This document shows, one piece after another, positions 58,156-63,671 of a DNA stretch of 64,000 nucleotides. The stretch is taken from positions 13,404-77,403 of the IMG/VR virus record IMGVR_UViG_3300032315_000675; one strand, 5' to 3'. The position numbers and the translations under genes are program-made. A model generated the notes under the pieces. It was not told the DNA's origin and did not search any database. It saw only the letters and a program-made list of their open reading frames with translations. The stretch is from a virus. Positions within the stretch are counted from its first letter, which is position 1, and each line of letters opens with the position of its first letter.

Positions 58156-59045
58156 ACCCACCCTGAGATTACGGGCTTGTAGCGAGTGTCTTTGGTCATT
58201 ACCGAATCCCTTGCGAGGACCGTTCTACCGTTATCCACTAACGCCTTTTACGGTCAGTTAGTAACACTCAATGCTGCCTTTTTGAGAGTCTGGCGTTTGA
58301 CTCGTCGCATATGTCTACTCGACCATCTATCCTTCGCCTGCCTTGCGAGCAGTTCGATTCCGCTAAGAACCTACGCTTTCTTTCCGATCAATCAGTTCCG
58401 CCTTGCGAGCATCCCTGAACCACATTCCCTTGCGAGTGTGGTATTAAGCACCTTTAAACATATACCGGAGCAGTCTTTCGCTTTTGTGAGACAAACTAGG
58501 AGTTGAACCTAGATCGACAGTATCTAAAACTGTTGCATTACCATTATGCAATTTGCGAACCTACGAAGATGTGCTGCTCCAGTTGCTCCATATCTTGTTA
58601 GATACAGAATACAACACACCTAGTATCTTTCTCCTTGCGGGATACTCAATCATACTTCACGACTCCGGTCATCCCTTCATCGCTTGTATTGCTATCTTGC
58701 CTTTCCTTGCAAGGTCAGACTCAATAACTACCTGTTAGTATTCAGCATTCATCAGTTTGGCTAGTTGAAGTTCGGGCGCCAACCCTCTTAGAACTCACCG
58801 ACTGGCTCTGTTCCTATCCTTTCGGACTTCAACTCTGATTTACTGCCTACCGCCTTTCTACAGACGGGAGTTGCTTTCGCTTAAGCGAGTCAACTCTAAC
58901 TCAGGCTTGCATAGATGGACCATTGCTGGCGCAAGTTTATAGGAAACCTTGCTTTGACAGAGATTACTCCCTGCTACCCTAGTGAGGCTATGCCCCCAAT
59001 TCTTGTACTCATTAGAAGAATGTAGTGCCTTGCCGCAACAACACA
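58156..59045 (-). ncRNA. large ornate ncRNA, GOLLD-like
   Basis: ~890 nt without a credible ORF; many C-GCAA-G and GAAA tetraloop hairpins; GGAGCAG/CTGCTCC long-range pairing; embedded tRNA fold; lies within a tRNA cluster. Confidence 0.7.
58490..58556 (-). tRNA. tRNA-like domain inside the large RNA (TAG at anticodon position, no CCA)
   Basis: D arm GCAT/ATGC, anticodon arm ACAGT-TTTAGAT-ACTGT, T arm CTAGG-TTCAACT-CCTAG; 5-bp acceptor stem. Confidence 0.65.
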
Positions 59046-59047
59046 AT

Positions 59048-59119
59048 TGAATACGGTGCCTCGGAATCGAACCGTCCCACCGGACTATCGCCCAGCTGCT
59101 CACCCTAGCTTCACCGCAC
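59048..59119 (-). ncRNA. degenerate tRNA-like element
   Basis: GTGCGGTG/CACCGTAT acceptor-like stem, GGTTCGATTCC T-loop, non-canonical anticodon loop, ends TTCA. Confidence 0.5.
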
Positions 59120-59151
59120 ACTACACTCATCTAATGAGTATATCATTAACA

Positions 59152-59222
59152 ATTTCAAAGAACGTCAAGCCGATCTCTCGACTTGATTTACGTAATATAC
59201 TTATTCTTGACCTCAATGTCAA
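59152..59222 (-). promoter_or_regulatory. sigma70 promoter followed by boxB-like hairpin and boxA-like antitermination site
   Basis: TTGACA-17-TATATT; TCAAGTCGA-GAGA-TCGGCTTGA; CGTTCTTTGAAA. Confidence 0.7.
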
Positions 59223-59253
59223 GAACTTTTTTGCCTATTATTTAAAAAAATAC

Positions 59254-59517
59254 AGAAGGAAAAAAGTAAGTGATAGACTGTGCAATCTGCATCGGTGTCT
59301 CATACGAGAACAACCTGTCAAACAACTTACAAGCGACAACGTGCAAAAACTAACTTATACTCAAACCACAATATGCAACAAAACAGGTTTGACTCATGCT
59401 AGTATGGAGCGTTTCAAGCGCCTGATCAATGTTTCATAAAAAGTGAAACGTAAGTGCCTACTCTCGTCTCTCTTTTCCTTCCGGGTAGTTTACCCCTACT
59501 AGAGGGGCCGACCTACC
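59254..59517 (-). ncRNA. putative structured RNA with 7-nt periodic UUG loop
   Basis: GGAAGGAAAA/TTTTCCTTCT terminal pairing; AACCTGT/ACAGGTT stem closing TTGNNNN heptads. Confidence 0.6.
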
Positions 59518-59521
59518 AAAC

Positions 59522-59941
59522 TCATCGATAATCGTGATCTAACTTAACGTCGGTTAGACCGGCAATCATCTGAAACTGTTCCCATGCATTTTTAGCAGCA
59601 GGGTTACGCTCTAGCTCAGAGTCAGTAAGAACTGTCTCCAACCAAATCTCCGGACGACGATAAGGGAGAGCCCCGAACTTGCGTGGTTGATGCAACTTGC
59701 CTTTATTGTAGAGATCCAGTGTTACATCACGGAATTTCTGTTCATCTTCATCCGTGTAGCCATACCATTCTACATGGCTAAACCCGCCGCCGTATGTATA
59801 CCCTTGCCAGATTGACTTCCATTGCCCATCATTAGTAGGATCAAAGTCCGTGCGGGCGATCAACACCAATACATCATCGATGTTGACCTTACCCTCAACG
59901 ATATCCTTAACACAGCGACTGTAGCTAAGACCGATCTTCAT
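59522..59941 (-). CDS. hypothetical protein
   Basis: IGLSYSRCVKDI...GKLHQPR; AAGGA SD. Confidence 0.75.
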   Translation of the reverse strand: MKIGLSYSRCVKDIVEGKVNIDDVLVLIARTDFDPTNDGQWKSIWQGYTYGGGFSHVEWYGYTDEDEQKFRDVTLDLYNKGKLHQPRKFGALPYRRPEIWLETVLTDSELERNPAAKNAWEQFQMIAGLTDVKLDHDYR

Positions 59942-59950
59942 CTTTGATCC

Positions 59951-60523
59951 TTAGAGAATGTTCTCGTTGGTGAGCGTAGCAACAGTTGCATCTGAAAACT
60001 CAATTTCAGTGCGGACGTTCAACTCGAGGAGTTCATCCTGCAGCTTCTGCTTCTGCTTCTTAGCAGCAGAAACGATGCCCTTGAAACCTTCAACTTCAGC
60101 TTCAGTGAAGATAGAGGTCTCAACCGTCTCGCCGCGGAAAGAATAAGCATCTTCCTTGCGGTTACGGATCTTCTCTAGCTTGCCAGCAATCACAGCAGAG
60201 TCGGCGATGACAGAAGCCTTTGCATACGTGCTGTAGAACTGAAGGTCTTTTTCAAGACGAGCAACATCAGCAAGACGACGGTCGATGCCTGTGCGTAGCG
60301 AATTGGCGTTTGCTGACGCAACAGCCTTACGAATCTCGTAAAGGGCATCAAGCAAAGCAACACGCCGAGCAAGGTTGCGGCTGAACTTGCTGGACGCAGC
60401 AAGAATTTCCTTGTCAGCGTCTTGGAACTCGTTAATGCTAGCAGAAGCATTGAATTCAAGGCCCTTGACAGTTTCGTTGATCGCTACTTGAATAGCGTTG
60501 GCCTTGCGTAGATTGATCTTCAT
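59951..60523 (-). CDS. alpha-helical coiled-coil protein
   Basis: MKINLRKANAIQ...IRKAVASAN...KQKLQDELLELNVRTEI; GAAGGA SD. Confidence 0.75.
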   Translation of the reverse strand: MKINLRKANAIQVAINETVKGLEFNASASINEFQDADKEILAASSKFSRNLARRVALLDALYEIRKAVASANANSLRTGIDRRLADVARLEKDLQFYSTYAKASVIADSAVIAGKLEKIRNRKEDAYSFRGETVETSIFTEAEVEGFKGIVSAAKKQKQKLQDELLELNVRTEIEFSDATVATLTNENIL

Positions 60524-60594: not shown

Positions 60595-60671
60595 TGGCGA
60601 CTCGTACGGGACTCGAACCCGTGATCTCCAGCGTGACAGGCTGGCGTCTTGACCAACTCGACTAACGAGCC
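60595..60671 (-). tRNA. tRNA-Asp(GTC)
   Basis: cloverleaf; loop CTGTCAC; GCCA end. Confidence 0.95.
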
Positions 60672-60757: not shown

Positions 60758-61156
60758 TTAAGTAAACGTCTTTAGTGCTTTCAAATCTTCACCGATGTTA
60801 TCTTCTGCAATCGGACCAAGTCCCAAGCACGTGATAGTCGGTTCATTGAATACAGTGAAACCTGCATCAGTCACTAGTGAAGTGCCACATACATTCTTGT
60901 ATGCTTCTTGCAATGCCTTCAACTCGTCAACGGTATCTACGATAAGAGTGATCTTGTACGCATGATCGCTATTTTGATAGCGTTCGGCATCACTAGGTTC
61001 GTCGTTAGAAAATCCGTGTTGTCCAGGAAACCGTTCTACAGAATCCCAAAATGCGTGTAGATAAGCATGACCTGCCTGCGCACACATTTTGCCACGGATA
61101 CCGTTCATCTTCTGAACGCTCTCCTTAGCAAAGATACAGTACATCCTATGTTTCAT
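60758..61156 (-). CDS. peptidyl-tRNA hydrolase type 2
   Basis: GKMCAQAGHA, KITL, VTDAGFT, TCLGLGP. Confidence 0.88.
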   Translation of the reverse strand: MKHRMYCIFAKESVQKMNGIRGKMCAQAGHAYLHAFWDSVERFPGQHGFSNDEPSDAERYQNSDHAYKITLIVDTVDELKALQEAYKNVCGTSLVTDAGFTVFNEPTITCLGLGPIAEDNIGEDLKALKTFT

Positions 61157-63087: not shown

Positions 63088-63594
63088 TTATTTTGAGACA
63101 ACAGCATTGCCATAGACCTTAGCATTGCTAAAGACCTCAGCATCGCCATAGAACTTAGCATCGCCATAGACCTTAGCATTGCCAAAGACCTTAGCATCGT
63201 CAAAGACCTTAGCATCGTCAAAGACCCGAGCATTTTCATAGACCCGAGCATTGTCATAGACAATAGCATTGTCATAGACCCGAGCATTGTCATAGACCCG
63301 AGCATCGCCATAGACTTTAGCATTGCCAAAGACAATAGCATTGCCACAGACCCAAGCATCACCGTGGACCTCAGCATCGCCGTAGACCCAAGCATTGTCA
63401 TAGACCCGAGCATTTCCATATACCCTAGCGTTACCAGAGACCCAAGCATTCCCTTGAAGATTCTCGTATTTCTCGATAAAGCCGCCAAGATCACCAGCCT
63501 TCACTCCGTGTTGGGGCATATCGACCAGCGCCTTAATACGATAGAGAGTCCTATCGGCGTGTTGAATGGTCTCATTAGTCAGTTCGTAGTTCAT
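63088..63594 (-). CDS. hexapeptide-repeat beta-helix protein (paralog of 11411-11971)
   Basis: MNYELTNETI...LYRIKAL...GDLGGFIE plus NAxVxG repeats. Confidence 0.88.
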   Translation of the reverse strand: MNYELTNETIQHADRTLYRIKALVDMPQHGVKAGDLGGFIEKYENLQGNAWVSGNARVYGNARVYDNAWVYGDAEVHGDAWVCGNAIVFGNAKVYGDARVYDNARVYDNAIVYDNARVYENARVFDDAKVFDDAKVFGNAKVYGDAKFYGDAEVFSNAKVYGNAVVSK

Positions 63595-63671
63595 AATCAA
63601 TTCCTATTTCTTAGCTTATAGTTCACTGTAGCAAAACGGATAACCAATGTCAACTGTTATTTTTAAAATCT

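What the first reader, a model, noticed from the sequence alone, without database searches (positions are those of the whole stretch)
59254..60523. Candidate new ribonucleoprotein: RNA with a 7-nt-periodic UUG loop downstream of a coiled-coil gene
Seen: on the minus strand, after the 190-aa helical ORF (59951-60523) and the 139-aa ORF, lies ~260 nt with no credible ORF. Its ends pair (GGAAGGAAAA 59482-59473 with TTTTCCTTCT 59263-59254). Inside, a perfect 7-bp stem (AACCTGT 59312-59318 / ACAGGTT 59383-59389) closes a ~64-nt U/G-rich loop; an alternative GTCAAAC/GTTTGAC register also exists. The loop reads TTGCATA TTGTGGT TTGAGTA ... TTGCACG TTGTCGC TTGTAAG TTGTTTG. On the plus strand, CAA recurs at 59323, 59330, 59337, 59344 and at 59362, 59369, 59376: exact period 7 with variable spacers. 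Established: a fixed triplet with variable spacer at constant period is how ring oligomers such as TRAP read RNA. Inference: the loop is a multivalent binding track for an oligomer of the co-transcribed coiled-coil protein (ring, filament or toxin-antitoxin-like pair). Period 7 is not a codon artefact.
Basis: partly seen in the sequence, partly recalled or inferred. Interest (0 to 1): 0.85.

Follow-up and report, generated by a model that had tools for sequence, protein, structure and literature searches.

The report
Phage protein paired with heptad-UUG RNA
A large tRNA-rich phage carries an uncatalogued ~290-nt structured RNA that displays UUG triplets exactly 7 nt apart and is always inherited together with one small helical protein gene, which points to a new phage RNA-protein particle of unknown function that can now be tested in cultured Caulobacter phages.

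Summary
Window 59236-59527 (minus strand) is a ~290-nt structured RNA. On 31 distinct relatives, 93.9% of cells are paired and 43 of 52 pairs show double changes. G·U outnumbers A·C 159 to 26, so selection acts on RNA from this strand.

An unpaired track holds 4-6 UUG(Y) units at exact period 7 with free spacers. A hairpin loop carries two more units. No Rfam family matches.

The RNA co-occurs with the 190-aa helical protein gene in both directions:
- 41 of 43 gene loci have it; one exception is cut short and one carries a diverged form.
- 31 of 31 RNAs found by a protein-independent pattern have the gene.
- 0 of 63 control loci have it.

The RNA lies downstream of the gene, after an interposed ORF, or directly upstream with its own promoter. 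Distant homologues (~27% identity) and cultured Caulobacter and Brevundimonas jumbo phages carry diverged versions with the same topology and track.

Its inner stem and single 64-nt loop are wrong.

Best reading (0.55): an oligomer of the protein reads the phased UUGs, forming a discrete particle within phage tRNA arrays. Binding was not tested.

This scan had already found the same module on other genomes (e1-5984361, e1-6007087). I re-derived it independently here.

The parts
59951..60523 (-). Gene of the 190-aa helical protein, the proposed protein partner. It is preceded by tRNA-Asp (60595-60671) and a weak promoter-like site at 60575-60547.
   Evidence: ORF. More than 2056 homologues, no Pfam family. 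PHROG 25230, unknown function. AF2 model with pLDDT 88.5, long helices. Conserved R6, K7, Q12, R65, N72, K155, K156, K158, Q159, Q162 and N169.
59522..59941 (-). 139-aa ORF interposed between the protein gene and the RNA in this clade only. It is not part of the module.
   Evidence: It is absent between gene and RNA in L073, L074, L075 and L089. 63 loci that carry only this gene have no RNA.
59236..59527 (-). The heptad-UUG RNA (full covariance-model match). It starts at the stop codon of the 139-aa ORF.
   Evidence: R1 match of 293.6 bits over model positions 1-298. Single copy in the 77-kb record. No Rfam match up to E=10.
59484..59517 (-). P1, the 5' hairpin: GGUA/UACC (59517-59514 with 59487-59484) enclosing the variable hairpin CCCCU/AGGGG (59507-59503 with 59497-59493).
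   Evidence: All 4 consensus pairs show double changes. The inner hairpin is read from the sequence.
59470..59483 (-). P2 5' strand (CGGAAGGAAAAGAG) of the long closing helix. It pairs with 59253-59266.
Evidence: 14 pairs, all with double changes, 97.1% paired.
59253..59266 (-). P2 3' strand (CUUUUUUCCUUCUG).
59456..59465 (-). P2b 5' strand (GAG.GUAGGC). It pairs with 59268-59278 (GUCUAUC.UU) and continues the closing helix past an internal loop.
   Evidence: 9 pairs, 8 with double changes, 91.7% paired.
59408..59449 (-). Two small variable hairpins: GUUUCA/UGAAAC (59449-59444 with 59436-59431) and GGCG/CGCU (59422-59419 with 59411-59408).
   Evidence: Compensatory changes are visible in the alignment (TCCAC/GTGGA, TCCGG/CCGGA; GACT/AGTC, ATAGC/GCTAT). 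They are not in the RNAalifold consensus because their lengths vary.
59349..59403 (-). Composite hairpin. P5a is 59403-59398 with 59354-59349. P5b is 59392-59386 with 59367-59361. Its 18-nt loop (59385-59368) shows two UUG units (UUGCAUAUUG; TTG at 59378 and 59371).
   Evidence: P5b: 6 of 6 pairs with double changes. P5a: 4 of 6. The loop consensus tTGca..TTG is conserved at 70-90%.
59319..59347 (-). Unpaired heptad track UUGCACG UUGUCGC UUGUAAG UUGUUUG (TTG at 59346, 59339, 59332, 59325).
   Evidence: The 90% consensus is TG....TTGT...TTG....TTG in 31 distinct sequences. Unit logo: U 86%, U 100%, G 100%, Y 97%, then three free positions. The 3-bp helix predicted inside it has no double changes.
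59281..59315 (-). Small 3' hairpins: GGU/ACC with UCUC/GAGA (59315-59294) and UGC/GCA (59291-59281). Some subgroups lack them.
   Evidence: Helices 7-9, with coordinates. Many sequences have gaps here.
59244..59250 (-). U7 run directly after the closing helix. It looks terminator-like in this clade only.
   Evidence: Sequence. Other clades have CCACCCUU or run straight into the gene here.
59194..59222 (-). Consensus sigma-70 promoter (TTGACA-17-TATATT) of the downstream GOLLD/tRNA unit. It marks the 3' boundary of the module and is not part of it.
   Evidence: 11 of 12 matches. Conserved in relatives.

Best explanation
Window 59236-59527 (minus strand) encodes a discrete structured RNA of about 290 nt.

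Architecture: a long closing helix brings its two ends together. The helix frames a junction that presents two sets of single-stranded U-U-G-Y units at exact 7-nt spacing. Two units lie in a hairpin loop, and four to six lie in an unpaired track.

Genetics: the RNA is made in one transcription unit with the 190-aa helical protein gene and is inherited with it.

Proposed mechanism: several copies of that protein bind side by side on the RNA, one per heptad. Each copy reads the invariant UUG and ignores the spacer. The result would be a particle of defined size in which the RNA fixes the number and arrangement of protein copies. The module sits inside phage tRNA arrays, where tRNA-processing enzymes would release the RNA.

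Shown here: the RNA, its structure, the conserved phased UUGs, the strand, and the strict genetic coupling to the protein.

Inferred: direct binding, oligomer formation, one protomer per heptad, and everything about what the particle does.
For: Structure:
- RNAalifold on 10 relatives gives 52 pairs, 21 of them compensatory.
- On 31 distinct covariance-model hits, 93.9% of cells are paired against 36-48% when partners are slid.
- 43 of 52 pairs have double changes. The covariation score is 0.577, against 0.243 shuffled and about 0.1 slid.

RNA and strand: 159 G·U cells against 26 A·C cells in paired columns.

Phased motif:
- UG at period 7 is invariant with variable spacers.
- Across 2.9 Mb of fetched loci, chains of at least 4 TTG number 53 at period 7, against 0, 5, 6, 3 and 0 at periods 5, 6, 8, 9 and 10.

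Coupling to the protein:
- Model R1 finds full-length hits in 41 of 43 loci with a homologue of at least 34% identity, always on the gene's strand.
- The two exceptions are a contig that ends 247 nt after the gene and a diverged copy with a 6-unit track.
- There are no hits in 63 control loci (474 kb) from the same phage group.
- In the reverse test, 31 of 31 pattern-derived, model-confirmed RNAs have the gene within 1.6 kb on the same strand. None of the 15 chance pattern hits does.
- The order varies: gene then RNA, gene-ORF-RNA, or promoter-RNA-gene with 9-17 nt between RNA and start codon.

Depth of the family:
- Homologues at about 27% identity carry a diverged RNA of about 250 nt with the same topology (50 pairs, 19 compensatory). 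Its unit is UUUGAYN.
- Cultured Caulobacter phages CcrColossus and CcrPW have six UUG units at period 7 in the unannotated gap after the homologous gene. Brevundimonas phage Domovoi has five UG units.
- Two marine MAG contigs also carry the pair.

Protein: a confident helical model with conserved Arg, Lys, Gln and Asn residues at the N-terminus and in the long C-terminal helix.

Precedent: the HutP hexamer reads XAG triplets with 4-nt sequence-independent spacers at two sites (PMC2425495).

Release of the RNA: 34 of 38 loci have tRNAs, all on the module's strand, and in 9 loci a tRNA abuts the RNA.
Against: - No experiment or model here shows binding or oligomerisation.
- No expression data could be obtained.
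- The protein has no recognised RNA-binding domain. Its fold matches only 3KDQ, a protein of unknown function, plus generic helical bundles. Its overall charge is near neutral, pI about 6-8.
- Genetic linkage would also arise if the two act in one pathway without touching.
- The three RNA subgroups are not linked by covariance-model searches. Their common origin therefore rests on topology, the hallmark track and protein homology.
- The covariation counts on A4 come from an alignment fitted to the model.
Confidence: 0.55

Rival explanations
1. Autoregulatory operator. The protein binds the RNA only to control its own synthesis or the stability of its mRNA. The RNA is a cis element of that mRNA and not a working partner.
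For: The RNA and gene always share a transcription unit. In the upstream-type loci the RNA ends 9-17 nt before the start codon, so bound protein could block initiation.
Against: In most loci the RNA lies after the stop codon, after an interposed ORF, or up to 1.6 kb away. Translational repression cannot act from there. A 290-nt multi-helix scaffold conserved down to about 27% protein identity is far more than known operators need. In 9 loci tRNA processing would cut the RNA away from the mRNA.
Confidence: 0.15
2. The RNA and protein work in the same pathway but do not bind each other. The phased UUGs would be read by another factor, such as a host protein that covers about 7 nt per domain, or another phage protein.
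For: Binding is untested. The protein lacks a known RNA-binding domain.
Against: The heptad consensus shifts together with the protein subfamily: UUGY in the main group and UUUGAY in the distant group. That is not expected for a conserved host reader across hosts as different as freshwater, marine and Caulobacter. No third gene is consistently linked; the neighbours differ between loci.
Confidence: 0.15
3. An RNA-only device. The phased UUGs would make tertiary or quaternary RNA contacts, for example self-assembly as in the neighbouring GOLLD RNA, or a ribozyme or ligand pocket. The protein would be a chaperone or unrelated.
For: The module lies in an island of ornate RNAs that includes GOLLD, which forms RNA-only assemblies (bioRxiv 10.1101/2024.12.08.627333, listed). 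The closing helix is purine/pyrimidine-rich in this clade.
Against: The purine-rich nature of the helix is not conserved: it becomes GCGGUUGAA or GAACCAAGU in other clades. That argues against a triplex with the U-rich track. Free spacers with fixed triplets at a fixed period are the signature of repeated identical readers, not of a single folded pocket. The distance between the two UUG sites varies from 29 to 40 nt.
Confidence: 0.08
4. A DNA-level element (iterons or an origin for a DNA-binding protein), or a chance pattern in a T/G-rich spacer.
For: A short repeated motif lies next to a promoter.
Against: The G·U to A·C ratio of 159:26 and 43 pairs with compensatory changes show selection on a folded transcript of one strand. 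A 7-bp period does not place sites on one face of duplex DNA. Chance is excluded by conservation in more than 70 loci and by the period controls.
Confidence: 0.02

Closest known systems
HutP and the hut leader RNA of Bacillus subtilis (PMC2425495)
   Same: Triplets are repeated with 4-nt sequence-independent spacers, giving period 7. There are two separate triplet clusters on one RNA, joined by a linker. A homo-oligomer reads them, one triplet per subunit.
   Different: - The triplet is XAG, not UUG.
- There are three units per site, not 2 plus 4-6.
- HutP is an alpha/beta protein with its own Pfam family, whereas this protein is all-helical with no family.
- The hut RNA is a short terminator/antiterminator leader of a metabolic operon. 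It is not a 290-nt closed scaffold that moves with the protein gene.
- No ligand control is evident here.
TRAP and the trp leader of Bacillus
   Same: A ring oligomer reads phased triplets in single-stranded RNA with free spacers.
   Different: TRAP reads (G/U)AG with 2-3 nt spacers, in 9-11 units, using an 11-mer beta-sandwich ring. It is a regulatory leader and not a stand-alone RNA. There is no sequence or fold relation.
Bacterial ornate or large ncRNAs with dedicated protein partners (OLE RNA with OapA-C; Y RNA with Ro60/Rsr)
   Same: A structured ncRNA is genetically linked to a small dedicated protein gene. Its ends are closed by a long helix, as in Y RNA. It occurs in phages near tRNAs and GOLLD.
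   Different: No Rfam model matches. The partner is neither a TROVE-domain nor an Oap protein. None of those RNAs has a phased-triplet track.
Type III toxin-antitoxin systems (ToxIN, CptIN, TenpIN)
   Same: An RNA gene and a protein gene form a two-part module, and the RNA contains repeats.
   Different: Antitoxin RNAs are tandem repeats of about 34-36 nt that the endoribonuclease toxin processes. Here the repeats are 7-nt units inside one large fold (TRF finds none). The protein is helical with no nuclease or defence-model hit. The gene order is variable.
GOLLD RNA (RF02032), the immediate neighbour
   Same: Same strand, same ncRNA/tRNA island, same phage group.
   Different: It is a separate transcription unit with its own promoter. 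The Rfam match covers only 58160-58622. L073 keeps the heptad RNA but has no GOLLD downstream of the promoter. In other loci GOLLD lies kilobases away or is absent from the locus.

Membership tests
HutP / hut leader | Triplets spaced by 4 sequence-independent nt (period 7) in two clusters | tested here: met
   Period 7 with free spacers, in a loop site plus a track. The HutP rule was checked in PMC2425495.
HutP / hut leader | The triplet is XAG | tested here: not met
   The unit is U-U-G-Y, with U 100% and G 100%.
HutP / hut leader | The protein belongs to the HutP family or fold | tested here: not met
   No Pfam or NCBIfam hit for any of 31 members. The model is all long helices. The PDB profile search finds nothing.
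TRAP / trp leader | (G/U)AG triplets with 2-3 nt spacers, and a TrpBP beta-sandwich 11-mer | tested here: not met
   UUG with 4-nt spacers. Helical protein with no Pfam hit.
Type III toxin-antitoxin | Tandem direct repeats of about 34-36 nt forming the antitoxin RNA | tested here: not met
   TRF finds no tandem repeat in 59150-59950. The RNA is one 290-nt fold.
Type III toxin-antitoxin | The toxin is an endoribonuclease of the ToxN, CptN or TenpN type | tested here: inconclusive
   No PADLOC hit for the window protein, and no nuclease among the fold matches. A missing fold match is not proof of absence.
GOLLD RNA (RF02032) | Match to the Rfam covariance model | tested here: not met
   The GOLLD match is confined to 58160-58622. 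Nothing matches in 59236-59527 up to E=10.
Any Rfam 15 family | A covariance-model match at or near the gathering score | tested here: not met
   No match on the window element or on eight divergent loci.
Heptad-UUG RNA / 190-aa protein module (family defined in this scan) | A closed structured RNA of about 250-300 nt with at least 3 UG units at exact period 7 in unpaired RNA | tested here: met
   Window units are at 59346, 59339, 59332 and 59325, plus the loop units.
Heptad-UUG RNA / 190-aa protein module (family defined in this scan) | Same-strand adjacency to a homologue of the helical protein of about 190 aa | tested here: met
   The gene is at 59951-60523, 424 nt upstream on the same strand. 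Family-wide co-occurrence is shown.
Heptad-UUG RNA / 190-aa protein module (family defined in this scan) | Physical complex of the protein and the RNA | not testable with these tools

The most novel reading that the evidence does not exclude
This is a new class of phage ribonucleoprotein. A closed RNA scaffold with heptad-phased UUG sites acts as a ruler that assembles a fixed number of copies of a helical protein of a new family. The particle is produced from within tRNA arrays and acts on the tRNA or translation apparatus, or on host defences that target it.
Probability: 0.45. Interest if true: 0.88.

Novelty: categorically new. Interest (0 to 1): 0.8.

Why it matters
Large, widespread structured RNAs with unknown function are rare. 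Each one that has been solved has exposed new biology. This one comes with three things that make it testable.

- An obvious candidate partner: the protein family has more than 2000 metagenomic members and no annotation.
- A simple sequence rule: UUG every 7 nt. That predicts exactly which mutations should break the complex.
- Cultured carriers: Caulobacter phages CcrColossus and CcrPW grow on C. crescentus CB15, a model host.

The module lies inside phage tRNA arrays next to GOLLD RNA, whose own function is unknown. Solving it may therefore also show what these phage RNA islands are for. If the protein does read heptad-phased triplets, it would be a third, structurally unrelated solution to phased-triplet RNA recognition, after TRAP and HutP.

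Tried and rejected
- Part of GOLLD: rejected. There is a separate promoter, the Rfam match ends at 58622, and L073 keeps the RNA without GOLLD.
- Linked to the adjacent 139-aa gene: rejected. 63 loci with that gene alone have no RNA.
- Intrinsic terminator as the element's role: the U-run after the closing helix exists only in this clade.
- Known RNA families: no Rfam hit on the window or on divergent loci.
- Known protein families:
  - Pfam, NCBIfam and PADLOC give nothing credible. The TIR-model hit of one distant member (E 3e-4 over a helical stretch) and the L7Ae-like hit (E 0.02) are treated as noise.
  - PHROG 25230 has unknown function.
  - The PDB sequence-profile search found nothing.
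- Fold searches: only 3KDQ (unknown function; Z 9.3, rmsd 5.5, 145 aligned) covers the whole chain. The other matches are generic helical hairpins within the range expected for helical models.
- ESM Atlas: only unnamed viral clusters.
- Fused longer forms of the protein: none found, which is weak evidence.
- tblastn of the window's own protein against cultured phages: no hit. Only a distant-subgroup query reached them, and another query did not.
- Covariance model R2 from the distant subgroup does not detect the main group or the Caulobacter-phage elements. R1 does not detect the distant subgroup.
- Literature searches found no description of the module. A survey of 8495 unnamed candidate RNAs in IMG/VR (PMC10690425) could include a fragment of it, and I could not check that.
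Full report
**What is at the site**

The window is a fragment (77-kb record, about 22% complete) of a large uncultured phage. Its right-hand part is a minus-strand island of ten tRNA genes and a GOLLD RNA at 58160-58622 (191.6 bits).

The finding lies between the stop codon of a 139-aa ORF (59522) and a consensus sigma-70 promoter. That promoter (TTGACA-17-TATATT, 59222-59194, 11 of 12 matches) drives the GOLLD/tRNA unit.

TTG on the minus strand starts at 59378, 59371 and 59364, and at 59346, 59339, 59332 and 59325. That gives five pairs at distance 7, against 0-2 at any other period. About 1% of dinucleotide shuffles of the stretch do as well with any motif and any period. The only other such place in 64 kb is an A-run. 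On its own this is suggestive, not compelling. The comparative data settle it.

**A conserved structured RNA**

The 190-aa and 139-aa proteins were used to fetch 135 related loci from IMG/VR. The non-coding stretch is conserved in a graded series of relatives.

An alignment of ten of them shows blocks of invariant sequence separated by helices with obvious compensatory changes. RNAalifold gives 52 pairs, 21 of them compensatory.

A covariance model (R1) finds full-length matches in the window and in 41 loci. On the 31 distinct sequences:
- 93.9% of cells pair, against 36-48% when the partners are slid by 1-3 columns.
- 43 of 52 pairs show double changes.
- The covariation score is 0.577, against 0.243 for shuffles and about 0.1 for slid controls. 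This alignment was fitted to the model, so the numbers lean towards it. The changes in the long closing helix are nevertheless wholesale, for example GGAAAAGAG/CUUUUUUCC becoming GCGGUUGAA/UUCACCGC or GAACCAAGU/ACUUGGGUC.

In paired columns G·U outnumbers A·C by 159 to 26. So the selected object is an RNA read from the minus strand of the window, not DNA and not the other strand. No Rfam 15 family matches, either here (E up to 10) or in eight divergent loci.

**Anatomy in window coordinates**

- A 5' hairpin (59517-59484) that starts right at the upstream stop codon.
- A closing helix of 14 + 9 bp (59483-59470 with 59266-59253; 59465-59456 with 59278-59268).
- Two small variable hairpins (59449-59431, 59422-59408).
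- A composite hairpin (59403-59398 with 59354-59349; 59392-59386 with 59367-59361). Its 18-nt loop reads UUGCAUAUUG.
- An unpaired track: UUGCACG UUGUCGC UUGUAAG UUGUUUG (59347-59319).
- Two small hairpins (59315-59281).

Its 7-bp inner stem is not conserved (64.8% paired, no better than slid controls). Its '64-nt loop' is really a hairpin loop plus a separate track.

**The phased UUGs are the hallmark of the family**

In all 31 distinct sequences the track keeps UG at exact 7-nt spacing while the three or four spacer bases vary freely. The unit logo from 132 units is U 86%, U 100%, G 100%, Y 97%, then three unconstrained positions. The hairpin loop keeps two more units.

The distance between the two sites varies from 29 to 40 nt and is not in phase. 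Over all fetched loci (2.9 Mb counting both strands), chains of at least four TTG number 53 at period 7, and 0, 5, 6, 3 and 0 at periods 5, 6, 8, 9 and 10.

**Coupling to the 190-aa protein gene**

- R1 hits 41 of the 43 loci whose protein is at least 34% identical, always on the gene's strand. One exception is a contig that ends 247 nt after the gene. The other has a diverged copy with a six-unit track.
- None of the 63 loci (474 kb) that carry only the 139-aa gene has a hit, and none has a chain of at least four units.
- For a protein-independent test I scanned IMG/VR with a DNA pattern taken from the RNA. Of 46 matches R1 confirmed 31. All 31 have the gene on the same strand within 1.6 kb, including 11 loci on contigs not seen before. 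None of the 15 chance matches does.

The arrangement varies:
- The RNA starts at the gene's stop codon.
- The RNA follows an interposed ORF. The 139-aa gene is one such insertion, specific to this clade.
- The RNA lies up to 1.6 kb downstream.
- The RNA lies directly upstream, with its own consensus promoter placed just before the conserved 5' GUUUUG, and with the gene starting 9-17 nt after its 3' end.

A linkage that survives these rearrangements, with orientation always kept, indicates functional coupling within one transcription unit.

**Depth of the family**

The loci whose protein is only about 27% identical are not detected by R1. In 22 of 25, however, there is a chain of 3-5 TTG units at period 7 about 190 nt after the gene.

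Aligned on their own, they give an element of about 250 nt with 50 consensus pairs, 19 of them compensatory, and the same topology:
- outer closing helices;
- small hairpins;
- a 16-bp hairpin with UUGAUGUUUGAUG in its loop;
- then the unpaired track, here with the unit UUUGAYN.

A query from this subgroup reaches cultured jumbo phages: Caulobacter CcrColossus and CcrPW, and Brevundimonas Domovoi and Papperlapapp. In each fetched locus an unannotated gap of 284-313 nt follows the gene. It contains six UUG units (Caulobacter phages) or five UG units (Domovoi) at period 7 and none at periods 5, 6, 8 or 9. A long closing helix encloses the element.

Two marine MAG contigs carry the main-group pair.

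One caveat applies. The subgroups are not connected by covariance-model searches in either direction. Their common ancestry is inferred from topology, the hallmark track and protein homology.

**The protein**

It belongs to a family of more than 2000 metagenomic proteins of 186-197 aa, with no Pfam, NCBIfam or PADLOC family. No fused forms were found.

AlphaFold2 gives a confident model (pLDDT 88.5) of long helices. Fold searches return only 3KDQ, a Corynebacterium protein of unknown function, over the full length. Otherwise they return uncharacterised phage proteins, including the CcrColossus one.

The most conserved residues are polar and basic: R6, K7, Q12, R65, N72, K155, K156, K158, Q159, Q162 and N169. 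That is compatible with nucleic-acid contact but does not prove it.

**Context**

In 34 of 38 loci there are tRNA genes within the locus, and every one is on the module's strand. In nine loci a tRNA abuts the RNA. RNase P and the 3' tRNA-processing enzymes would therefore release the RNA with defined ends. This is an inference. In the window, tRNA-Asp lies 72 nt upstream of the protein gene.

**Interpretation**

Fixed triplets with free spacers at a fixed period, in single-stranded RNA, are how homo-oligomers read RNA. HutP reads XAG with 4-nt spacers, that is period 7, at two sites on one RNA (PMC2425495). TRAP reads (G/U)AG with 2-3 nt spacers (established knowledge).

- The RNA is co-inherited with one protein gene.
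- The unit consensus changes with the protein subfamily.
- No third gene is consistently linked.

I put 0.55 on a discrete RNA-protein particle in which the RNA sets the number and arrangement of protein copies. The rivals are:
- a purely autoregulatory operator (0.15);
- another reader of the track (0.15);
- an RNA-only device (0.08);
- a DNA element or chance (0.02).

This is not a member of the HutP, TRAP, type III toxin-antitoxin or GOLLD families. The defining features tested were not met.

**Novelty and earlier notes**

I found no description in Rfam or in the searchable literature. A survey of unnamed IMG/VR candidate RNAs could contain a piece of it.

This scan had already flagged the same module on other genomes (e1-5984350, e1-5984361, e1-6007087). 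I read those notes only after reaching the conclusions above. I tested the cultured-phage claim of e1-5984361 myself, and it holds for four phages.

Noticed in passing
window 58160-59183 (-): GOLLD RNA (RF02032, 191.6 bits, 58160-58622) with an embedded tRNA-Leu(UAG)-like cloverleaf at 58488-58558. It has its own consensus promoter at 59222-59194. The ~560 nt between the promoter and the Rfam match are conserved in relatives, so the transcript is probably about 1 kb.
   Followed up: partly
L072 5274-6437; L079 5122-6258: In two relatives an ORF of about 380 aa (N-terminus MFFYIGTNCP...) is inserted between the heptad RNA and the GOLLD promoter. It may be a mobile gene that uses this junction as an insertion point.
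   Followed up: no
L073 4565-5200: This relative keeps the heptad RNA and the following promoter. It has lost the 139-aa gene, of which only the last ~50 nt remain, and it has lost GOLLD. This shows that the three units are independent.
   Followed up: partly
L145 5460-5711: A sub-threshold match to bacterial RNase P RNA class A (61.8 bits, gathering score 100, whole model in 252 nt). It lies between tRNAs right after the heptad RNA and may be a minimised phage RNase P-like RNA.
   Followed up: no
L103 5038-5108: A freshwater-2 RNA motif just under the gathering score (45.6 against 49.9 bits), immediately downstream of the heptad RNA.
   Followed up: no
window 60758-61156 (-): A PTH2-type peptidyl-tRNA hydrolase gene (Pfam PF01981, E 4e-15) inside the tRNA island, two tRNAs upstream of the module.
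   Followed up: no
38 module loci: Every tRNA gene found near the module (up to 18 per locus) is on the module's strand. The protein gene plus RNA is often wedged between tRNAs with gaps of a few nucleotides, so an mRNA is embedded in a tRNA array.
   Followed up: partly
window 63088-63600 (-): A 170-aa ORF made almost entirely of GNA(K/R)V(Y/F) hexapeptide-like repeats. A 146-aa ORF in another frame of the same strand overlaps it.
   Followed up: no
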